39,410 bases of DNA from a virus. A program made the translations under genes and the position numbers. The first letter of the stretch is position 1, and each line of letters opens with the position of its first letter. The notes under the pieces are model-generated. The model was given only the letters and a program-made list of their open reading frames with translations. It ran no database searches and was not told where the DNA came from. Of this stretch, positions 666 to 36,046 are shown piece after piece. The stretch covers positions 1-39,410 of the IMG/VR virus record IMGVR_UViG_3300045988_098250; one strand, given 5' to 3'.

Positions 666-963
666 CTTCATCGTCCTCATCTTCGCATAGCATATCCGTA
701 ATACGCTCGTAAGCATCTTCTTTGGCTGGGTTCAAGTCGTTAACAGCTAATGTCTTGCTATCGTCGTTTAATCCCATTAGGTACTCAATTGGAACTTCTA
801 AAAAGTTAGCCAACTTTTGCCAAATTGCTAAAGAGTTAGGTATTCCATTTTCCAATCCTTTTTCGAAATTTTCTAAAATTCTAAAATCAATGTTGGTTTT
901 AGCTTGCATATCAGCAAGAGTTAGTCCTTTTTCTATCCGCAACTCTTTCAATCTATTTTTCAT
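658..963 (-). CDS. XRE-family helix-turn-helix protein with acidic C-terminal tail
   Basis: MKNRLKELRIEKGLTLADMQAKTNI is a classic XRE/Cro-CI HTH. The C-terminus is CEDEDDEDE. Confidence 0.75.
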   Translation of the reverse strand: MKNRLKELRIEKGLTLADMQAKTNIDFRILENFEKGLENGIPNSLAIWQKLANFLEVPIEYLMGLNDDSKTLAVNDLNPAKEDAYERITDMLCEDEDDEDE

Positions 964-1654
964 TTGCTACTTCCTCCGGTAAATTCTTAATGCACGTCAA
1001 TAAGTACCCCTGTGGATACTGTTCACCGTAAACAACGGTCTTTTCGGCTGCTTCTTTCAGTCCTCTTGTATCCTTACCATGCACTGCTTTGACCATCTTT
1101 TTAATTTCTGTAGCAGAAAACGTAATCGGCGGTCTTCTCCACTCCTCAGCACAATGGTTAAGATACGTAATTAGGATTTCAATTGCATTTGCATCTCTCT
1201 CCCTCTCTTCTTTAGAGAGAGATTTATTAATTGATCTATTATGATGTTCTTTTAACTTGTTCTCTTTAGGTGAACGCTGTTTCACTACCCCCGTGAATTC
1301 CTGTTCACTACCCTGGTGAAATGGAGAACACCACCCTAGTGAAGCAGATTTCACTAGGGTGTCGCCCGCTGAGATTATTCTGCCTTTAATTGCTCCATTT
1401 TGTGAGTCTTTAACTATTTTTCTATTTATATATCCTTCTTTTTCGAGAAGATTTATGTAATTAATAACAGTTTTCCTATCACAGTGTAATCGTTTGGCCA
1501 GCGTGCTGTTACTCATGAAAAATTCACCCGTAACATTTAACATCGATACGATTTCACCTAAGAGAATGATAGATTTAGGATATTTTAGTAATTTTTCATC
1601 TCTAGCAGCTGCAACTGGTATGTTTAAGAATGCTCTTGATCCTGTAAATTCCAT
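953..1654 (-). CDS. Putative replication initiator / replisome organiser (winged-helix HTH N-terminal domain)
   Basis: 233-aa ORF directly downstream of erf. HTH-like segment STLAKRLHCDRKTVINYINLLEKEGYI. Iteron cluster inside the gene (1278..1361). SD AGGTGA precedes the ATG. Confidence 0.55.
   Translation of the reverse strand: MEFTGSRAFLNIPVAAARDEKLLKYPKSIILLGEIVSMLNVTGEFFMSNSTLAKRLHCDRKTVINYINLLEKEGYINRKIVKDSQNGAIKGRIISAGDTLVKSASLGWCSPFHQGSEQEFTGVVKQRSPKENKLKEHHNRSINKSLSKEERERDANAIEILITYLNHCAEEWRRPPITFSATEIKKMVKAVHGKDTRGLKEAAEKTVVYGEQYPQGYLLTCIKNLPEEVANEK
1278..1361. repeat. Iteron cluster, putative origin of replication embedded in the replication gene
   Basis: Direct repeats ctgtttcactacccccgtgaa (1278..1297) and ctgttcactaccctggtgaa (1301..1320). 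Then a perfect 12-bp inverted repeat caccctagtgaa-gcagat-ttcactagggtg (1332..1361). All share the TTCACTA core. Confidence 0.45.
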
Positions 1655-1664
1655 TGCTCATCAC

Positions 1665-2468
1665 CTAAAATAAACTATCTACATCGGGATCGCTCTCACT
1701 TGCTACTTTCTTTTCAGCAAACGGATCCTTTTTGTTTTCTTCGGGTCGAGACTGCTGTATCTTATCAAGAGCATCTTTCTTTGCTTTATCAGATTCTTTT
1801 GTTCCGGGGTGTTTCTTTTTAAAAATCTGCGCAATTTGATGGATAGCTTGCGCATCTTCTGGTGTATGTGACTCTTTAAACCAATCCTGTGCGTCTTTGA
1901 TACCATCTCTTGCTTCTTGATATAAGTCATACAAGTTAGCTTGAACGCCATTGTAATACACCTGATAATTTTCAAGTTCCTGCTTGGTTAAGATTTTAGG
2001 TTCATAGATAGTCTTTTGATCTTGTACGTCATTATCATCGTCTGCAGCAATCCCAAAGGCTCCACTAAGTGAATATCTTTTTGCATAACTGATAAGACTG
2101 GCGGTTGCTTGTGCATCATATGCTTTACCGTTTTGAAAAACGATTTTATTTGTTTTGACAGTAAAGCCTGAAGCATCAACTAAAAGTGTTTGGACGGCTA
2201 CTGCAGTGTTAGTTGTTTGAATATCGAAGAAATAACTAAAAGTTACATTACCTTCTTTATCTGTAGCTTTTTTAATACCATCCATTACTGCTTTATCAAT
2301 GTCTGCTAGATCGGCATACTTATAGTCATAGCTATAAGGTTTTCCTTGTTTGTTTTTGCCTGAAACAGTAACATTATGTGTTCTTTTAGGCTGGCTAATA
2401 TTAGCCTTCACTTGTGCGTAATGCATTGCCCACTTAGCTCTATCTTCTTCTCTTCCATAAATTTCCAT
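1665..2468 (-). CDS. erf: ERF-family single-strand annealing recombinase
   Basis: 267 aa. YADLADIDKAV and SYAKRYSLSGAFGIAADDDND are typical ERF motifs. The C-terminal tail is acidic and Lys-rich. Confidence 0.85.
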   Translation of the reverse strand: MEIYGREEDRAKWAMHYAQVKANISQPKRTHNVTVSGKNKQGKPYSYDYKYADLADIDKAVMDGIKKATDKEGNVTFSYFFDIQTTNTAVAVQTLLVDASGFTVKTNKIVFQNGKAYDAQATASLISYAKRYSLSGAFGIAADDDNDVQDQKTIYEPKILTKQELENYQVYYNGVQANLYDLYQEARDGIKDAQDWFKESHTPEDAQAIHQIAQIFKKKHPGTKESDKAKKDALDKIQQSRPEENKKDPFAEKKVASESDPDVDSLF

Positions 2469-2470
2469 GC

Positions 2471-3361
2471 TTAGTTCACCCTTTCATAGCTAATACCCCA
2501 ATCGCGGATGAAGTTAGATAGGGCCGTTAATTGTTCTGTGGTGCCAGTAAGTTTAAGTGTGACGCTATGTACCTTATCAACTACTTCACCTGTTTTGGCA
2601 TCAACATACTTATCGCCATGTTGTTCAAGCGATTCTATAGCTTTCTTACGGTTCTCTTCTTGTTGCTTTGACTGCTCAATCAAATATTTGTGGTCATTAT
2701 CCATTTGAGTAAGAACATCAGGCAGTGACTTATAATCAAGCATCTGCAAGTAAGGACTAGCTGTCATAGCTGGTTTAGTGTACTCGTTAGCCTTATTAGC
2801 AATAACTTGTTCAGCTTCTTTTCTAGCTTTCTCCTGCTCAACAATTGCTTCAAATTGCTGTCTAGCTTCTTCTTCAATGGTCTTCCAGCTAGTTGACTTG
2901 TTGTCCCACTTAGGGTTGTACTCTAATTTTTGAAGAGCTACACCGTATTCAGTAGCAATCTCACCAAGTCTAATCAAGTTCTGCTGGTGCTTATCTTTCC
3001 TAGCCTTTTCATCAAAAACTTTAATGCCCTCATTGATATGGTCAACTGCCTCTTTAATTTCAAGGTCTAAGCCTTTAATTAATGCCGTAAACTCATCTAT
3101 AGGTTGACTAGCCTGTTTAGTAATCTCTTTGCGTCTATCATTTAACGCCTTACGAATACGATTCAGCTCAGCTTTAGTCTTCTTGTCATAAGGGTAGGAC
3201 TTAGAAGTTACTACATAGGTATCCCAGCCCTGGGCTATCTCATCTACTTTTGCTTTTAAATCTTGATAGCCAGGAAAGTCTACTTTTGCTGGCTCAAAAT
3301 TAATTGGAAAGTTCTCATTTTCAAATGTAATTAATGCTTGTGTTTTGTTAATCTTATTCAT
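2471..3361 (-). CDS. DUF1351-like protein (recombination-module partner of ERF)
   Basis: 296 aa. The N-terminal pattern INFEPAKVDFPGYQDLKAKVDEI...KKTKAELNRIRKALNDRRKEITK matches my recollection of DUF1351 proteins encoded upstream of erf/ssb in Firmicutes phages. Confidence 0.6.
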   Translation of the reverse strand: MNKINKTQALITFENENFPINFEPAKVDFPGYQDLKAKVDEIAQGWDTYVVTSKSYPYDKKTKAELNRIRKALNDRRKEITKQASQPIDEFTALIKGLDLEIKEAVDHINEGIKVFDEKARKDKHQQNLIRLGEIATEYGVALQKLEYNPKWDNKSTSWKTIEEEARQQFEAIVEQEKARKEAEQVIANKANEYTKPAMTASPYLQMLDYKSLPDVLTQMDNDHKYLIEQSKQQEENRKKAIESLEQHGDKYVDAKTGEVVDKVHSVTLKLTGTTEQLTALSNFIRDWGISYERVN

Positions 3362-3391
3362 GTTATAATTCCTTTGGTTCTATATATTTTT

Positions 3392-3544
3392 CTAGTCGTT
3401 AGCTGTTGGCGCAGTTAGCGGCTTTTTTGTTGACATTAAATCCGTTCTAAATTGACGTTGATACTCATCTTCAATGAATTGCTGCTTAGTTTCTTTTGTG
3501 AAAAAAGCATTGCTGCTACTGATTAATCGTGTTTCTAAACTCAT
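3392..3544 (-). CDS. Hypothetical 50-aa protein (below the ORF-track size cut-off)
   Basis: My own translation: MSLETRLISSSNAFFTKETKQQFIEDEYQRQFRTDLMSTKKPLTAPTAND. Strong SD AAGGAGGG 7-9 nt upstream of the ATG. Confidence 0.45.
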   Translation of the reverse strand: MSLETRLISSSNAFFTKETKQQFIEDEYQRQFRTDLMSTKKPLTAPTAND

Positions 3545-3558
3545 TTCATTCACCCTCC

Positions 3559-3705
3559 TTAAATATTCGGAAAAATCGCGGTAAACATTGTGAATATGAA
3601 CGTGATAAATACCCCAATAAATCCGCCTAGTGCTAAAAAATCTGTTTCTCTACAATTCAAATCAATGTGAAACCAATTATTTACTATTTTGTTAAACCAT
3701 CTCAT
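3559..3705 (-). CDS. Possible 48-aa single-pass membrane peptide
   Basis: My own translation: MRWFNKIVNNWFHIDLNCRETDFLALGGFIGVFITFIFTMFTAIFPNI. It overlaps the 3' end of the upstream gene by 14 nt. The SD is weak. Confidence 0.3.
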   Translation of the reverse strand: MRWFNKIVNNWFHIDLNCRETDFLALGGFIGVFITFIFTMFTAIFPNI

Positions 3706-3976
3706 CGTTGCTCATCATCCTATCTAAATCTGCTCTTGCATATCTAACTACTCCGCAAACAATGCGGGGTGTAATTATTCCATCTTTTCGCCATTTATCA
3801 AAAGTACTTCGGCTAACTCCGCAATAGTTAGCAGCATCCCCTACATTGAAATACCCTTGTGATGCGTATTTTTTAATCAAAGATTTAGCATCTTTTTTCG
3901 TTAGCAAATTGTTACTCACGTCCGGTATTTCTTCTCTAATAATTGAGCGAAGAGCGTTTGAATTTATTAAATCCAT
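3692..3976 (-). CDS. MerR/excisionase-type helix-turn-helix DNA-binding protein
   Basis: FNVGDAANYCGVSRSTFDKWRKDGIITP is HTH_17/Xis-like. I prefer the start at ATG 3976 (AAGGAG 7 nt upstream) over track position 4000. Confidence 0.6.
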   Translation of the reverse strand: MDLINSNALRSIIREEIPDVSNNLLTKKDAKSLIKKYASQGYFNVGDAANYCGVSRSTFDKWRKDGIITPRIVCGVVRYARADLDRMMSNDEMV

Positions 3977-3989
3977 CTCAAACTCCTTA

Positions 3990-4778
3990 CTAAACATCAA
4001 ACGTGGTTACCATAACGTCTTGATAAATATCATCAAACTTCCCACGTAGAGCCTTATTGATGATGTGTTTCTGTCCTTTCGGTGTCACAAACACTTGTGA
4101 ATATGGACGATTATCTCTTGTAAGTCTGTGGGTTATTCGGAAATATCCTCTTTTGACCTTGTCGGTCATAGGTAAGTTCCAGGTACTTCTTTGGTGTGAT
4201 AAATATTTAGCATGTCTTAACAATTGAAATAGTTGATTACGGCCGATTACAAAGCCATTTTGTGTTAAGATGTCAGCTAATTCAGCAATAGTAATTGCAT
4301 GGTGGCTGTATCTAATAGCTTTTGCAAAAACTACATCGTCAGCATCTTTGGCAATTTTTTCTGCCTGCTTTGCATTGACGTCTTCAAGTTCCTTATTCTT
4401 ATTTTCAAGTAGCTTTACACGACTGCTTGCGATGTTTAATGCACGCTGCATAATCATATCTGGATTGTTCCAGTTCTTTTCAACTTGAATAAAGTACTTG
4501 CGAACTTCTTTACCTCTTGATGTTTTTGACATCATGCAAATTTGTTTCGCTGTTTCAATTGTTAAAAGAACATCATCGTATTTTCGTACTGTTCCATTGC
4601 CACTTTTAACGAGGTAACTTTCAGGTGACCTCGTAAAATCTACACCCACTATAAAACCTGCTACATTTTGAGAAATCCATTCAGAATACTTCTTTTTAGC
4701 TCCTAAAGTTTTATGCAAATCTCTAGCTGAAACAAGTTGCTGATCGTTTTGGACTTTTATATTAATTATTTCGTTCAT
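3990..4778 (-). CDS. Phage antirepressor (AntA-type N-terminal domain plus ANT-type C-terminal domain)
   Basis: 262 aa. DQQLVSARDLHKTLGAKKKYSEWISQN at the N-terminus and AKAIRYSHHAITIAELADILTQNGFVIGRNQLFQLLR at the C-terminus. Located directly after cro. Confidence 0.8.
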   Translation of the reverse strand: MNEIINIKVQNDQQLVSARDLHKTLGAKKKYSEWISQNVAGFIVGVDFTRSPESYLVKSGNGTVRKYDDVLLTIETAKQICMMSKTSRGKEVRKYFIQVEKNWNNPDMIMQRALNIASSRVKLLENKNKELEDVNAKQAEKIAKDADDVVFAKAIRYSHHAITIAELADILTQNGFVIGRNQLFQLLRHAKYLSHQRSTWNLPMTDKVKRGYFRITHRLTRDNRPYSQVFVTPKGQKHIINKALRGKFDDIYQDVMVTTFDV

Positions 4779-4790
4779 TTGTTCATCTCC

Positions 4791-5018
4791 TTAATGTTCA
4801 CTATTGTGAACGTCTTTTGCAAAAAAAAGCGAAATTTGTTTCTTTTCGAAACCTAGTACACTTAAGATCTTGACAAATTCTTCCATACCAATGTCACGTT
4901 CTCCATTCTCCTTTCTCCAATAGGCATTCGTACTAATGCCTATTTTACGTGCCATTTGAGCTTGTGTAATTCCTCGTGCTACACGCTCACCTTTTAAACG
5001 TTGCAAATCAAACTTCAT
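4791..5018 (-). CDS. Cro-like XRE-family repressor
   Basis: 75-aa HTH (GITQAQMARKIGISTNAYWRKENG), divergent from the CI-like gene across a 149-bp switch region. SD is GAGGTGG. Confidence 0.8.
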   Translation of the reverse strand: MKFDLQRLKGERVARGITQAQMARKIGISTNAYWRKENGERDIGMEEFVKILSVLGFEKKQISLFFAKDVHNSEH

Positions 5019-5167
5019 TATTCCACCTCAATTCGTTCACTTTGAAGAACAACTATATAATATTCTTATCGTATTCTTTTGTCAACAAAAAACATAAAAA
5101 AAGATAAAAAATGTATTTTTTTGTCAACAAGTGGAGTATTATTAGTATTAAGAGATGAGGTGAAATA
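5019..5167. promoter_or_regulatory. Lysis/lysogeny genetic switch: divergent promoters and repeated operator-like sites
   Basis: An 18-bp direct repeat gtatt(c/t)ttttgtcaacaa lies at 5071..5088 and 5113..5130. Minus-strand promoter candidate: -35 TTGACA (complement of 5080..5085), 17-bp spacer, -10 TATTAT (complement of 5057..5062). Plus-strand candidate: TTGTCA 5121..5126, 16-bp spacer, TAGTAT 5143..5148. Confidence 0.55.
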
Positions 5168-26906: not shown

Positions 26907-27209
26907 TTAATCTGCTTTGACTATCTGCTCACGATCATATTGACGTGCTAAGAAGTCATTATCTTTTACAATCTTTCTTAATTTGGCTTGATAACCTCTT
27001 ATTGATTGATTGAGCTTTCTAACATTTTCAGGATCTTCATCCCTCTCAGCAAGTTCTTTTTTGTATTTAAGGTGTCTAATACTGCGTTCATAGTATCTTT
27101 GCTGTTGTTGTATCTTAGCATTCTTGACGGCTTGCTTAGGGTCATAATGCTTTTGAAAGTTATGAGATACGCCTTTGATGTAAGGATAAAGAATGTGACT
27201 GCAGTTAAT
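26907..27209 (-). CDS. Minor capsid / head morphogenesis protein (SPP1 gp7-like), exon 2 (100 aa, no own start codon)
   Basis: My own translation of the minus strand: INCSHILYPYIKGVSHNFQKHYDPKQAVKNAKIQQQQRYYERSIRHLKYKKELAERDEDPENVRKLNQSIRGYQAKLRKIVKDNDFLARQYDREQIVKAD-stop. It supplies the conserved NC(R/S)H..YP(F/Y) motif that the truncated upstream ORF lacks. In-frame TAG TAA lie 8-9 codons upstream and there is no ATG. Confidence 0.8.
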   Translation of the reverse strand: MNCSHILYPYIKGVSHNFQKHYDPKQAVKNAKIQQQQRYYERSIRHLKYKKELAERDEDPENVRKLNQSIRGYQAKLRKIVKDNDFLARQYDREQIVKAD

Positions 27210-28163
27210 CTTTTCTGTAATCTTGTATTACTACAAGTGTCGGACTATATCATCTAAGGCTTTCGCCTCGCATTGCACTTCGACCGGTAGCTTGTCTTCC
27301 GGTCTACTCTACTCGATTTTTACTCTTTCGATAGTCTCTACACCTTTTTAATAAATTCCCAGCGATAACCGCCAGCACTCTTTCTATACTTTTTGTGTAA
27401 GCAAACTGCACTAATTTGTCTTGAATTTATGCCAGTTGCTCTTTCAGCTTCTCGCACACCATCAAAAGTGTTAATTAGTTTGCCATCTTTAGTATATTGA
27501 CCAACTCTCTTTTTAAGAGAATCAGTGTATTTTTTTAATTGCTGGCTTTTCTTTGCTAAATATTTTGGATCTTTTAGCCTTTCTTTTTGAATTTGACTAG
27601 ATAGCTTAGAATGTCTTTCTCTATATTCTTTGTTTTGCCAGTTTCTTTTATTCATTTGAGAAAATTGAACGCTTTTGGCTTTTGCCATATTTTCAGCGTT
27701 AGTAGGAGCGCCGTCTATTACGTTATACATTGGAATATTTCTTTTTCTGTAAAGTAATATCCATTTTTTCTCTAAAAAATCAAGATCTGAGATTTTGCAT
27801 TCTTCTAAGATTTTTTTACTAAAATTTTGAATCCCATATTTAGCAATATCTTTATGTAAATTATAAGGTCTTTGATTTATTGCACTTTTTTTAAAGTGAT
27901 CTATAAATCTTTGATGAATATCAGTTGACTGACCAATATATACTTTACCAGTTGCCTTATTAATAATTATATAAATTCCAATAGTTTTATTCATCGCTGA
28001 GAACCTCTTAAACTTGGCACGGGATTAACCTAAATTAGGCTTTCCCCGTTAGCTTTAACAATATTAATCTATATAACTATTATATCATTTATGTAGACAA
28101 TTAATACCGTTAAAACACCCCTAAGCTAAGGGTTCACAATGTTTATACAGGGCATTAACGTCT
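27210..28163 (-). mobile_element. Group I intron (954 nt) carrying a GIY-YIG homing endonuclease ORF
   Basis: Exon 1 ends in U and the intron ends in G. P1: exon CAGGGU (28169..28164) pairs with internal guide GCCCUG (28153..28148), giving a U-G wobble at the splice site. GNRA-capped hairpins: GAGGC-GAAA-GCCUU (27256..27269) and CUUGUA-GUAA-UACAAG (27222..27237). Another hairpin: GACCGG...CCGGUC (27282..27304). Splicing restores the reading frame. Confidence 0.78.
27338..27994 (-). CDS. GIY-YIG homing endonuclease (I-TevI-like)
   Basis: GIYIIINKATGKVYIGQS is the GIY...YIG motif. A Lys-rich linker follows, then a C-terminal DNA-binding module (GINSRQISAVC...GGYRWEF). The ORF sits entirely inside the intron. 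Confidence 0.9.
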   Translation of the reverse strand: MNKTIGIYIIINKATGKVYIGQSTDIHQRFIDHFKKSAINQRPYNLHKDIAKYGIQNFSKKILEECKISDLDFLEKKWILLYRKRNIPMYNVIDGAPTNAENMAKAKSVQFSQMNKRNWQNKEYRERHSKLSSQIQKERLKDPKYLAKKSQQLKKYTDSLKKRVGQYTKDGKLINTFDGVREAERATGINSRQISAVCLHKKYRKSAGGYRWEFIKKV

Positions 28164-29012
28164 ACCCTGTGTGCCGGCCGGCTTGCCGTATCCATAATCG
28201 TAAATATTAGGATACGAAAGATCAGCCTTTGGATCGCTTTTAGGTACAATGCACACTACTTTGCCTTGAATTGGAGCACAAGCCGGTCTTGCTGCCGGAT
28301 GACTAGACATAGTAGCAAGTACTGTGTCAAATTCCTTCATAGATTGCGCCCTAGCTTCGTTAAATACTCGGTGAGTAGTAGATGTAATGACAGTTCTTGT
28401 ATACCCTTCTAGCGTCCACTCATGACCGCCTTTGTCTGTTAGGGATGTAGGCAAGCCTTTGTCATACCATTGGAGGATATTGTCTTTTAATGCTCTATCT
28501 GCCGTCTTAGTTCCTGTAGAAACATCTAATACAGTTTTGTCGATAATGTTTTGATAGGTTTTTAAGGCTGCATTTTTATGAACATTAGTTGTTAATAACG
28601 TCTGATTAACATAGTTATTGACATTTCTAAAGGTTTGATCGGCATAAGCATTAATAATTGCTACTGTATCATCACTCACACCTCGCATTGGTTGCTTTAA
28701 TGCTGTGGATAATTCACTGTTCATTCTTTTAGCAACTGTTAAACCTTGGCCTTGAATAAGATCATAAATAGCTTGCTTACTATATCCAATATTTTTGGCA
28801 ATAAAATCAACCACTTTGTCAGTTAAACCACCCATTTCAGCAAGAGCCTTTAAGCGCCACTCCAAGACGCTTTTTTCATCAGCATTAATAAGCATCCCTT
28901 TGTGCTTCTTAAACGTGTCAATCAGCAAATAAAAGGTATGCTGCTGCAAGTAATCATAATAATCAACTATCTTGCTTGCTTGCTTCATCATCTTGCTTAG
29001 TTGTGGATCCAT
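28164..29012 (-). CDS. Minor capsid / head morphogenesis protein (SPP1 gp7-like), exon 1 (283 aa)
   Basis: Track ORF 28155..29012 ends ...SSHPAARPACAPIQGKV...YGYGKPAGTQG then RR-stop read from intron sequence. In homologs the PAG..G segment is followed by (W/I)NC(R/S)H, which is found in exon 2. Confidence 0.8.
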
Positions 29013-35942: not shown

Positions 35943-35972
35943 GCCTAATCCTCCTATATATCTCTGTCATAT

Positions 35973-36046
35973 GGTAACTGATGGAATCGAACCACCGCTA
36001 ATTTGGTACTTCACACCAATGCTCTACCAACTGAGCTAAGTTACCA
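35973..36046 (-). tRNA. tRNA-Phe (anticodon GAA)
   Basis: Folded by hand from GGTAACTTAGCTCAGTTGGTAGAGCATTGGTGTGAAGTACCAAATTAGCGGTGGTTCGATTCCATCAGTTACCA. 7-bp acceptor stem. D stem GCTC/GAGC. Anticodon stem TTGGT/ACCAA with loop GTGAAGT. T arm GGTGG-TTCGATT-CCATC. No encoded CCA. Confidence 0.75.

What the first reader, a model, noticed from the sequence alone, without database searches (positions are those of the whole stretch)
26907..29012. Minor capsid (SPP1 gp7-like) gene split by a 954-nt group I intron carrying a GIY-YIG homing endonuclease
Seen in sequence: the 285-aa ORF (28155..29012) stops at ...YGYGKPAGTQG-RR-stop, just before the motif that ends this family, (W/I)NC(R/S)H..YP(F/Y). 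About 950 nt downstream the minus strand has an ATG-less open frame (27209..26907) reading INCSHILYPYIKGVSH...QYDREQIVKAD-stop, preceded by in-frame TAG TAA. Joining 28164 to 27209 is in frame and gives a 383-aa protein reading ...PAGTQG|INCSH.... The junction obeys group I rules: the last exon base is U and the last intron base is G. Exon CAGGGU pairs with an internal guide GCCCUG 10 nt into the intron, giving a U-G wobble. The 3' part of the intron holds GNRA-capped hairpins (GAAA and GUAA) and a 6-bp GACCGG/CCGGUC helix. The 218-aa GIY-YIG ORF (27994..27338) sits in the intron between a 169-nt 5' segment and a 128-nt 3' segment, with its own SD (AAGAGG). Established knowledge: homing introns insert at highly conserved sequence in essential phage genes. 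Consequence: standard ORF callers would annotate a truncated minor capsid gene, a free-standing endonuclease and a roughly 430-bp non-coding gap.
Basis: partly seen in the sequence, partly recalled or inferred. Interest (0 to 1): 0.75.

Follow-up and report, generated by a model that had tools for sequence, protein, structure and literature searches.

The report
Mobile self-splicing intron in capsid gene
A head-protein gene of a Lactobacillus gasseri-type temperate phage is interrupted by a 954-base self-splicing group I intron that carries its own DNA-cutting "homing" enzyme; this is a genuine but ordinary kind of selfish element that public annotation has missed.

Summary
The observation and the interpretation both hold. 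On the minus strand, exon 1 (29012..28164), a 954-nt intron (28163..27210) and exon 2 (27209..26907) rejoin to a 383-aa protein that matches Pfam Phage_min_cap2 end to end. Five intron-less phage alleles, including Lactobacillus phage JNU_P7, read exactly ...GTQG|INCSH... there.

Fourteen distinct relatives of the intron lie at the same codon boundary in capsid genes only 30-97% identical. They give compensatory changes in P1, P10, P3, P5, P6, P7.2 and P9: 93% of cells paired versus 35-43% in slid controls. The U.G pair at the 5' splice site and the terminal G never vary.

The ORF lies in the P6 loop and encodes a GIY-YIG/NUMOD1 endonuclease with all catalytic residues. The intron is 99.8-100% identical in six phages whose exons are only 82-94% identical, which points to recent homing.

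Rfam's group I model scores below threshold, because of the ORF and two hairpins inserted in J3/4. "SPP1 gp7-like" is not met by sequence.

One extra finding: a conserved copy of the exon junction sits upstream of the endonuclease ORF, next to a TGnTATAAT box. It resembles the I-TevI operator.

Verdict: a new member of a known kind, of moderate interest.

The parts
28164..29012 (-). Exon 1 of the minor capsid (Phage_min_cap2) gene, codons 1-283. It ends ...ACA CAG GGT.
   Evidence: PF06152 profile 6-272, E = 4e-51. Aligns to the intron-less JNU_P7 allele.
27210..28163 (-). Group I intron, 954 nt. It starts AGACGUUAAU and ends ...AGAAAAG.
   Evidence: The boundaries are set by the intron-less alleles. 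The U.G pair and the terminal G are invariant in all relatives. Pairs covary.
26907..27209 (-). Exon 2, codons 284-383 plus the stop codon. It starts ATT AAC TGC (INC...).
   Evidence: PF06152 profile 273-365, E = 1.7e-17. There is no start codon, and in-frame TAG TAA lie upstream.
28164..28170 (-). P1 5' strand, the last 7 exon bases ACAGGGU.
   Evidence: Pairs with 28147..28153. 3 of 7 pairs show compensatory changes and 98% of cells are paired.
28147..28153 (-). Internal guide sequence, P1 part (GCCCUGU).
28154..28159 (-). Internal guide sequence, P10 part (GUUAAU). It overlaps the exon-1-frame stop codon UAA at 28155..28157.
   Evidence: Pairs 6 of 6 with exon 2 bases 27204..27209. 3 of 6 P10 pairs covary.
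27204..27209 (-). P10 3' strand, the first 6 bases of exon 2 (AUUAAC).
28135..28141 (-). P3 5' strand (CAUUGUG), 5 nt after P1. There is no P2.
   Evidence: Pairs with 27271..27277. 3 of 7 pairs are compensatory and 99% of cells are paired.
28117..28133 (-). Hairpin A, the first of two hairpins lying between P3 and J3/4.
   Evidence: 82% of cells are paired, with one-sided changes only. The same element occurs in many related phage introns.
28053..28115 (-). Helix B. The 5' strand is 28107..28115 and the 3' strand is 28053..28061. Its loop is about 45 nt.
   Evidence: 7 of 9 pairs are compensatory. The single-sequence fold recovers it.
28091..28108 (-). Exon-junction mimic GGTATTAATTGTCTACAT. 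It has the same pattern as the last exon-1 codon plus the first 15 bases of exon 2, and would translate as G-I-N-C-x-H.
   Evidence: The pattern GGWATHAAYTGYNNNCAY occurs once in the window, with 0 expected. It is present with at most 1 mismatch in all 16 GIY-YIG introns of this site. It is absent from the HNH-type introns.
28079..28087 (-). TGATATAAT, an extended -10-like box 3 nt downstream of the mimic and 84 nt upstream of the endonuclease ATG.
   Evidence: Read from the sequence. A perfect TGNTATAAT follows the mimic in 8 of 14 distinct relatives. The generic sigma-70 scan did not call it because there is no -35.
28019..28049 (-). P4 (ACGGGG/UCCCGU), J4/5 AAA, P5 (GCCUA/UAGGU) and J5/4 UAA.
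   Evidence: Matches RF00028 positions 60-140, 15.6 bits. P4 is 100% paired and P5 has 3 compensatory pairs.
28010..28018 (-). P6 5' strand (GCC AAG UUU).
   Evidence: Pairs with 27342..27349. 4 of 6 pairs are compensatory and 100% of cells are paired.
27338..27994 (-). GIY-YIG/NUMOD1 homing endonuclease ORF, 218 aa, in the P6 loop. Its Shine-Dalgarno sequence AAGAGG is at 28004..28009. Its last four sense codons and its stop codon lie in the P6 3' strand and J6/7.
   Evidence: PF01541 and PF07453. TIGR01453 scores 99.1 bits against a cut-off of 56. The best PDB match is the I-TevI catalytic domain.
27332..27349 (-). P6 3' strand, J6/7 and P7 5' strand (AAAAAGGUGUAGAGACUA).
   Evidence: Near-invariant in all relatives. 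The 19-nt core was found in 67 viral contigs.
27313..27331 (-). P7.1 (UCGA...UCGA).
   Evidence: Weak support: 81% of cells paired and no compensatory change. The fold recovers it.
27282..27304 (-). P7.2 (GACCGG/CCGGUC).
   Evidence: 4 of 6 pairs are compensatory and 99% of cells are paired.
27271..27277 (-). P3 3' strand (UGCAAUG).
27256..27269 (-). P8 (GAGGC-GAAA-GCCUU).
   Evidence: The fold recovers it. By eye the relatives covary: CAACC/GGUUG, CAACU/AGUUG, CACGU/ACGUG. It was left out of the pair count because the register differs between two classes.
27243..27255 (-). J8/7 and P7 3' strand (AGAUGAUAUAGUC).
   Evidence: Matches the RF00028 consensus GAUAUAGUC. 35 of 37 nt here are identical to a bona fide RF00028 intron, 90.7 bits, of Pseudoalteromonas phage J2-1.
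27222..27237 (-). P9 (CUUGUA-GUAA-UACAAG). The loop is GNRA in all relatives.
   Evidence: 4 of 6 pairs are compensatory and 100% of cells are paired.
27210..27210 (-). Terminal G of the intron (omega G).
   Evidence: G in every relative.

Best explanation
A mobile group I self-splicing intron of subgroup-IA type (954 nt, 28163..27210, minus strand) interrupts the Phage_min_cap2 minor capsid gene of a Lactobacillus gasseri/johnsonii-type temperate siphophage. It lies between codons Gly283 and Ile284, just before the conserved NC(S/R)H motif.

Inferred splicing pathway:
- The late pre-mRNA is translated up to a stop codon 6 nt into the intron.
- The ribozyme pairs the last exon bases ACAGGGU with its guide GCCCUGU (P1, with U.G at the cleavage site).
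- The first exon-2 bases AUUAAC pair with the adjacent GUUAAU (P10).
- Two guanosine-initiated transesterifications ligate the exons, giving an mRNA for a 383-aa protein.

The P6 loop carries a 218-aa GIY-YIG/NUMOD1 endonuclease. This enzyme presumably cuts intron-less alleles of the gene in co-resident or co-infecting phages. Repair from the intron-bearing copy would then copy in the intron together with a few flanking exon bases (homing).

What is shown: the anatomy, the covariation, the intron-less alleles and the population pattern. What is inferred: catalysis, cleavage and homing.
For: Gene continuity
- PF06152 matches profile 6-272 in ORF 1 and 273-365 in the downstream frame.
- The joined protein matches profile 6-365 of 366 in one stretch, 257.8 bits.
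- Five intron-less alleles at 87-90% nucleotide identity read ...GKPAGTQGINCSHILYPY... exactly as predicted.

Ribozyme
- On 14 distinct introns from the same site, 73 proposed pairs are 93.1% paired, against 35-43% when partners are slid.
- 32 pairs carry changes on both sides, against 2-12 in slid controls, and 0 of 500 shuffles reach the observed values.
- Compensatory pairs occur in P1 (3), P10 (3), P3 (3), helix B (7), P5 (3), P6 (4), P7.2 (4) and P9 (4).
- The U.G pair is present in 14 of 14, and the last intron base is G in all.
- The P4-P6 and J8/7-P7 parts match the RF00028 consensus at E = 0.51 and E = 0.0069.
- 35 of 37 nt at P7-P9 equal an intron that scores 90.7 bits.
- The 5' and 3' segments fold with z = -5.1 and -4.4.

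Endonuclease
- GIY, YIG, R29, H33, E75 and N91 align to I-TevI. A NUMOD1 domain is present. TIGR01453 scores above its cut-off.

Mobility
- Relatives of the endonuclease at 47-74% identity all sit at the same codon boundary, in capsid genes that are 30-60% identical.
- Among alleles at least 94% identical in protein there are 6 with the intron and 4 without.
- The intron is 952-954 of 954 identical, while the flanking exons are 82-94% identical.
- All 7 intron-bearing alleles end exon 1 in ACACAGGGT. The 5 intron-less alleles use synonymous CAGGGA, CAAGGA or CAAGGG, which would weaken P1 and lose the U.G pair.
Against: - RF00028 does not reach its gathering score: 21.8 and 15.6 bits against 50. 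The same holds for every relative at this site.
- P7 is invariant, so it carries no covariation information. P7.1 is weakly supported.
- The core has a non-canonical layout. The P3 5' strand lies directly after P1, and two hairpins are inserted between it and J3/4. I could not match this layout to a named subgroup.
- No RNA data show the spliced junction. No biochemical data show cleavage.
- The alignment used for counting was trimmed by anchor motifs that I chose.
Confidence: 0.92

Rival explanations
1. The endonuclease gene is a free-standing insertion that split the capsid gene without splicing. Either the two halves are made as separate polypeptides, or the gene is dead in a decaying prophage.
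For: Gene callers and public records treat the pieces as separate genes. Rfam gives no above-threshold intron. Split genes caused by free-standing endonucleases are known in T4-like phages (review PMC2988022).
Against: - Exon 2 has no start codon or Shine-Dalgarno sequence and is preceded by in-frame stops.
- The 297 non-coding bases keep 32 covarying base pairs, including pairs between intron and exons. A non-spliced insertion would be under no such selection.
- All intron-bearing alleles keep exon bases that fit the guide sequence.
- The arrangement is kept intact in dozens of phage contigs.
Confidence: 0.04
2. The intron splices, but the endonuclease is no longer active. The element would then be a vertically inherited passenger rather than a currently mobile one.
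For: Truncated NUMOD1-only versions of 128-130 aa exist in some L. gasseri records. Relatives at this site with degenerate ORFs exist (L038, L050). Cleavage has not been tested.
Against: - The window's ORF is full length with all catalytic residues.
- The identical protein is seen on 209 contigs.
- The intron is 99.8-100% identical across phages whose exons differ by 6-18%, as expected from recent lateral spread and not from co-descent.
- Intron-bearing and intron-less alleles coexist among near-identical genes.
Confidence: 0.12
3. The conserved junction mimic at 28091..28108 acts in RNA rather than DNA. As a decoy 3' exon it would pair with the P10 part of the guide sequence and modulate splicing. 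It would not be a protein-binding operator.
For: The mimic can pair with the P10 strand almost as well as the real exon 2 does: 70% against 77% of positions over 14 introns, and 6 of 6 in the window. Its 5' half also lies in an extension of helix B.
Against: - Conservation runs 18 nt (GGWATHAAYTGYNNNCAY), well beyond the 6-nt P10 region, and varies only at codon-wobble-like positions.
- It does not track the guide sequence where the real exon does. In L003, for example, the exon is GUAAAU and the mimic is AUUAAU.
- It is absent from introns at the same site that carry an HNH enzyme.
Confidence: 0.2

Closest known systems
Phage T4 td intron with I-TevI (group IA2 intron, GIY-YIG endonuclease in the P6 loop)
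   Same: - The ORF lies in the P6 loop.
- The P4-P6 sequence is nearly the same (ACGGGGAA...CAAUCCCGUGC; my recollection of td).
- P7.1 and P7.2 are present.
- An in-frame stop lies just inside the intron.
- The enzyme has a GIY-YIG N-terminal domain and a helix-turn-helix DNA-binding C-terminus.
- A copy of the homing-site sequence sits upstream of the ORF next to a promoter-like box, like the I-TevI operator (PMC2988022).
   Different: - The host gene is a capsid gene of a Gram-positive temperate phage.
- There is no P2.
- Two hairpins are inserted between P3 and J3/4.
- The protein has no Cys pairs, so it lacks the zinc finger that sets I-TevI's cleavage distance.
- The catalytic domains are only distantly similar (phmmer E = 0.002).
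Group I introns in structural and packaging genes of Gram-positive phages and prophages. Examples: B. cereus-group prophage tape-measure, terminase and tail-tube introns; Lactococcus phage Tuc2009 major head protein; L. delbrueckii phage JCL1032.
   Same: Self-splicing IA-type introns, often with endonuclease ORFs, inserted at the most conserved part of late genes and spread by phages (PMC2504315; PMC6669764).
   Different: I found no report of an intron in a Phage_min_cap2 gene, or in L. gasseri-group phages, in the searchable library. No deposited phage in the 2025 collection carries a close relative of this endonuclease; the best match is 43% identical over under half the protein, and full-length matches are at most about 31%.
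Pseudoalteromonas phage J2-1 nrdA intron (RF00028, 90.7 bits)
   Same: 35 of 37 identical bases over J8/7-P7-P9. It has the same P7.1/P7.2-type insertion between P7 and P3'.
   Different: It has no ORF and a canonical P2-P3-J3/4-P4 order. The host gene and the host phylum are different.

Membership tests
Group I self-splicing intron | The last 5'-exon base is U, wobble-paired to G of an internal guide sequence (P1). | tested here: met
   U.G in 14 of 14 introns. 3 of 7 P1 pairs are compensatory.
Group I self-splicing intron | The last intron base is G (omega G). | tested here: met
   G in the window and in every relative.
Group I self-splicing intron | P10 forms between the start of the 3' exon and the guide sequence 5' of its P1 part. 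| tested here: met
   6 of 6 pairs in the window. 3 of 6 pairs covary and 77% of cells are paired.
Group I self-splicing intron | A conserved core of P3-P9 with the P3/P7 pseudoknot. | tested here: met
   P3, P4, P5, P6 and P9 are supported by compensatory changes. P7 is 100% paired but invariant. P8 is supported by eye only.
Group I self-splicing intron | The score against Rfam RF00028 reaches the gathering threshold of 50 bits. | tested here: not met
   21.8 bits for the 3' half and 15.6 bits for P4-P6. An ORF-less relative with the same layout scores only 30.7 bits, with P3 unaligned. No relative at this site passes. The model cannot bridge the 657-nt ORF or the J3/4 insertion.
Group I self-splicing intron | Guanosine-dependent self-splicing, or a ligated exon junction in RNA. 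| not testable with these tools
   No RNA data or biochemical data are available.
Subgroup IA | Extra helices P7.1 and P7.2 lie between P7 and the P3 3' strand. | tested here: met
   P7.2 has 4 of 6 compensatory pairs. P7.1 is weak at 81% paired.
Subgroup IA | The canonical order P1-(P2)-P3-J3/4-P4. | tested here: not met
   Two hairpins lie between the P3 5' strand and J3/4. Hairpin A shows no compensatory pair; helix B has 7 of 9 compensatory pairs. The layout is shared by many IMG/VR phage introns. It was not compared with a curated subgroup catalogue.
GIY-YIG homing endonuclease (TIGR01453, I-TevI-like) | A GIY-YIG catalytic domain with the conserved Tyr, Tyr, Arg, His, Glu and Asn residues. 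| tested here: met
   PF01541, E = 3e-9. Y8, Y19, R29, H33, E75 and N91 align to I-TevI chains 1MK0 and 1LN0. TIGR01453 scores 99.1 bits against a cut-off of 56.
GIY-YIG homing endonuclease (TIGR01453, I-TevI-like) | A C-terminal NUMOD-type DNA-binding module. | tested here: met
   NUMOD1 PF07453 scores 31.3 bits against a cut-off of 22.8, over residues 162-195.
GIY-YIG homing endonuclease (TIGR01453, I-TevI-like) | A zinc finger in the linker, as in I-TevI itself. | tested here: not met
   The 218 residues contain only two Cys, at positions 66 and 188.
GIY-YIG homing endonuclease (TIGR01453, I-TevI-like) | Presence/absence polymorphism and lateral spread of the element. | tested here: met
   6 intron-bearing against 4 intron-less close alleles. 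The intron is 99.8-100% identical where the exons are 82-94% identical.
GIY-YIG homing endonuclease (TIGR01453, I-TevI-like) | Site-specific cleavage of the intron-less allele. | not testable with these tools
   Needs purified protein and substrate DNA.
Phage_min_cap2 (PF06152) | A full-length match to the family profile. | tested here: met
   The spliced protein covers profile 6-365 of 366, 257.8 bits.
SPP1 gp7 minor capsid family (TIGR01641) | A score above the family cut-off. | tested here: not met
   13.2 bits against 39.65. Only the gene's position after an SPP1-type portal gene is shared.
I-TevI-type autorepression operator | A sequence like the homing site lies inside the intron, upstream of the endonuclease ORF. 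| tested here: met
   GGTATTAATTGTCTACAT against the junction GGT|ATTAACTGCAGTCAC. The pattern occurs in 16 of 16 GIY-YIG introns of this site and once in the window, with 0 expected.
I-TevI-type autorepression operator | The operator overlaps the promoter that drives the endonuclease. | tested here: inconclusive
   TGATATAAT lies 3 nt downstream of the mimic. In L069-type relatives, TAGACA-17 nt-TATAAT has its -35 inside the mimic. However, the generic scan calls no promoter here, and in some relatives the box is also a strand of helix B.
I-TevI-type autorepression operator | The endonuclease binds the operator and represses its own transcription. | not testable with these tools
   Needs binding and reporter assays.

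The most novel reading that the evidence does not exclude
The 18-nt copy of the exon junction, kept inside the intron next to a TGnTATAAT box, is an operator. Through it the GIY-YIG endonuclease would repress its own intron-internal promoter. Homing-site mimicry, shown so far only for T4 I-TevI, would then be a general and independently maintained feature of endonuclease-bearing phage introns, here in a Gram-positive temperate phage and without the zinc-finger ruler. Linked to this, the host ribozyme belongs to a widespread class of phage introns with two hairpins inserted in J3/4. The curated Rfam model misses this class, so many split phage genes remain unrecognised.
Probability: 0.35. Interest if true: 0.55.

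Novelty: new member of a known kind. Interest (0 to 1): 0.42.

Why it matters
- Annotation. Public records carry a truncated 285-aa 'minor capsid protein', a stand-alone 'GIY-YIG nuclease' and an unexplained gap. The true product is 383 aa. The same error affects dozens of Lactobacillus-type phage and prophage contigs.
- A tractable natural system. Near-identical L. gasseri-group phages exist with and without a 99.8-100% identical intron. These are ready-made donors and recipients for homing experiments in a human commensal.
- Short co-conversion or selection tract. The exon bases next to the intron track the guide sequence perfectly: -1 T in 7 of 7 intron-bearing alleles and in 0 of 5 intron-less alleles.
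- Detection blind spot. This ribozyme layout falls below Rfam's threshold even without an ORF.
- Regulation. The junction mimic offers a testable second example of endonuclease autoregulation.

Tried and rejected
- Rfam at the gathering threshold on the window found only a tRNA. At E up to 1 over the whole window it found no further intron.
- A distant-mode DNA search of the intron against deposited phages found only a 37-nt match to phage J2-1.
Host assignment therefore rests on JNU_P7 and Lj928 similarity and on protein names.
- Literature searches for an intron in a minor capsid gene or in L. gasseri phages, and for hairpins between P3 and P4, found nothing relevant.
- An alternative junction was rejected. 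With exon 1 ending ...GGG and the intron ending ...AAAA, the protein would be unchanged, but both the U.G rule and the terminal-G rule would be broken, and P1/P10 covariation fixes the junction as given.
- A local P2 (AAACA/UGUUU) was rejected. It is invariant, it breaks in L009, and it competes with the covarying P3 and helix B.
- A canonical P3 using the strand next to J3/4 was rejected. It has no complementarity in most relatives.
- Rfam's own placement of GACCGG/CCGGUC as P3 was rejected. That helix is P7.2.
- P8 was left out of the pair count, because two classes of relatives differ in register.
- The generic promoter scan does not support an internal promoter.
- The terminator-like hairpin at 27375..27359, inside the ORF, was not pursued.


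Full report
**What is in the sequence.** The region is read on the minus strand. The ORF 29012..28155 (285 aa) ends ...YGYGKPAGTQG-RR-stop. A 218-aa ORF follows at 27994..27338. Then an ATG-less frame at 27209..26907 reads INCSHILYPY...QIVKAD-stop, preceded by in-frame TAG TAA. Joining 28164 to 27209 is in frame and gives 383 aa. The neighbours are a terminase, an SPP1-type portal gene upstream, and a scaffold and capsid gene downstream. The window as a whole resembles Lactobacillus gasseri phage JNU_P7 and L. johnsonii prophages.

**The gene is one gene.**
- Pfam Phage_min_cap2 (PF06152) matches profile positions 6-272 in the first ORF and 273-365 in the downstream frame.
- The joined protein matches positions 6-365 of 366 in a single stretch at 257.8 bits.
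- Lactobacillus phage JNU_P7 carries an uninterrupted allele, 87.7% identical in DNA, that reads ...GKPAGTQGINCSHILYPY....
- Four more uninterrupted alleles with 95-96% protein identity are in IMG/VR.
- The label 'SPP1 gp7-like' is not met by sequence. TIGR01641 scores 13.2 bits against a cut-off of 39.65.

**The intervening sequence is a group I intron.** Rfam's RF00028 does not reach its threshold. The J6/7-to-P9 part scores 21.8 bits (E = 0.0069) and the P4-P6 part scores 15.6 bits. I therefore gathered relatives.
- Homologues of the endonuclease at 47-74% identity all lie between two Phage_min_cap2 fragments.
- The 19-nt core GTGTAGAGACTATCGAAAG occurs in 67 IMG/VR contigs. Nineteen of them have the same split gene.
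- In every case exon 1 ends at the same codon boundary, just before (I/V/P)NC(S/H/R)H. This holds although the capsid proteins are as little as 30% identical.

On a trimmed alignment of 14 distinct introns I wrote down a structure and counted pairs.
- 93.1% of cells are paired, against 35-43% when partners are slid.
- 32 of 73 pairs carry changes on both sides, against 2-12 in slid controls. No shuffle out of 500 reaches the observed values.
- Compensatory pairs occur in P1 (for example ACAGGGU/GCCCUGU against ACUCGGU/GCCGAGU), P10, P3, P5, P6, P7.2, P9 and a helix I call B.
- The U.G pair at the 5' splice site and the terminal G are invariant.
- In the window, the first six exon-2 bases AUUAAC pair perfectly with GUUAAU immediately 5' of the guide sequence.
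- J8/7-P7-P9 is 35 of 37 identical to an intron of Pseudoalteromonas phage J2-1 that scores 90.7 bits with RF00028.
- Single-sequence folds of the two non-coding segments have z = -5.1 and -4.4 and recover P1, helix B, P4-P5, P7, P7.1, P7.2, P8 and P9.

**Layout.**
- The order of elements is P1, five bases, the P3 5' strand, hairpin A, helix B, J3/4 (CUA/UAA), P4-P5, P6 with the ORF in its loop, J6/7, P7, P7.1, P7.2, the P3 3' strand, P8, J8/7, the P7 3' strand, P9, and the terminal G.
- The last four sense codons and the stop codon of the ORF lie in the P6 3' strand and J6/7.
- The exon-1 reading frame stops at UAA, 6 nt into the intron.
- The two hairpins between P3 and J3/4 are not in the canonical scheme. 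This explains part of Rfam's failure. An ORF-less intron with the same layout in another gene (L022) scores only 30.7 bits with P3 unaligned. None of the 13 min_cap2-site introns among the 17 related loci scanned passes the threshold.
- The same layout recurs at many other insertion sites in IMG/VR. I could not establish whether it has a name.

**The ORF is a homing endonuclease and the element looks recently mobile.**
- The protein has GIY-YIG and NUMOD1 domains and scores above the cut-off of TIGR01453, 'group I intron endonuclease'.
- It aligns to the I-TevI catalytic domain with Y8, Y19, R29, H33, E75 and N91 in place. It has no zinc finger.
- Among alleles at least 94% identical in protein, six carry the intron and four do not.
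- The intron is 952-954 of 954 identical in those six phages, while their exons are 82-94% identical to the window's.
- All seven intron-bearing alleles end exon 1 in ACACAGGGT. The five intron-less alleles use CAGGGA, CAAGGA or CAAGGG. Co-conversion during homing predicts this pattern, and so does selection for P1 pairing.
- A second intron lineage, with an HNH-type or a degenerate ORF, occupies the same site in a more distant branch of the gene family.

**An extra feature.**
- In the loop of helix B, 28108..28091 reads GGTATTAATTGTCTACAT. This mimics the ligated junction GGT|ATTAACTGCAGTCAC.
- The pattern GGWATHAAYTGYNNNCAY occurs once in the window, with none expected.
- It is present with at most one mismatch in all 16 GIY-YIG introns of this site, although the rest of the loop is unalignable. 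It is absent from the HNH-type introns.
- It is followed by TGATATAAT (28087..28079). Eight of 14 relatives have a perfect TGNTATAAT there. In some relatives a TAGACA -35 box lies inside the mimic.
- T4 I-TevI represses its own intron-internal promoter through an operator with 15 of 20 identity to its homing site (PMC2988022). I propose the same role here, as an inference.
- Caveats: the generic promoter scan calls nothing. The box doubles as a helix strand in some relatives. The mimic could also pair with the guide sequence as an RNA decoy.

**Comparison and novelty.**
- Group I introns with endonucleases in late genes of Gram-positive phages are well known (PMC2504315; PMC6669764).
- I found no report for this gene family or for L. 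gasseri-group phages. I found no close relative of the enzyme in deposited phage genomes.
- Public records annotate the pieces separately.
- This is a new member of a known kind, well supported in silico. The possible operator and the Rfam blind spot are the parts worth following up.

Noticed in passing
window 28091..28108 (minus strand), with 28079..28087: An 18-nt copy of the ligated exon junction lies inside the intron and is followed by TGATATAAT. It is conserved in all GIY-YIG introns of this site and absent from the HNH-type ones. It may be an I-TevI-like operator, or an RNA decoy for the guide sequence.
   Followed up: partly
window 28053..28133; L022 about 5000-5060; L043, L044, L047, L048, L060, L065, L071: Two hairpins sit between the P3 5' strand and J3/4-P4, and there is no P2. 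The layout is shared by many IMG/VR phage introns at different insertion sites. RF00028 cannot align P3 in them and scores below threshold even without an ORF (30.7 bits in L022). I could not tell whether this layout is a named subgroup.
   Followed up: partly
L029, L046 (intact HNH-type ORF); L038, L050 (degenerate ORF); L013, L042: A second intron lineage with the same ribozyme type lies at the homologous site of more distant Phage_min_cap2 genes (junction ...LLH|PNCRH...). Its guide sequence is adapted (ACUCCAU/GUGGAGU). It carries an HNH-type endonuclease or remnants of one in P6, preceded by its own TGATATAAT box.
   Followed up: partly
L003, L004, L008, L041, L030, L020, L052, L069, L075 (P7.1 region): In many relatives P7.1 is extended by a G+C-rich hairpin followed by a run of U, which looks like a terminator. 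The U run can pair with the GAAAG of P7.1. The window's intron lacks this extension.
   Followed up: no
L065, about 900-5000 (stored orientation, minus strand): Five separate RF00028 matches above threshold (54-89 bits) lie within about 4 kb. A sixth intron, of the sub-threshold class, lies nearby. This is a heavily intron-invaded phage locus.
   Followed up: no
protein cluster of the endonuclease (P0112, P0121, P0122): Truncated versions of 128-130 aa with NUMOD1 only are annotated in some L. gasseri genomes. This suggests degeneration of the endonuclease in part of the population.
   Followed up: no
window 35971..36046 (minus strand): A tRNA-Phe (anticodon GAA) gene lies inside the phage sequence.
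   Followed up: no
window 27359..27375 (minus strand): A terminator-like hairpin with a T-rich tail lies inside the 3' end of the endonuclease ORF.
   Followed up: no
L002 2315..2534 (Pseudoalteromonas phage J2-1, MF370964.1): The ribonucleotide reductase alpha gene is annotated as two CDSs. Between them lies an unannotated ORF-less group I intron (RF00028, 90.7 bits).
   Followed up: partly
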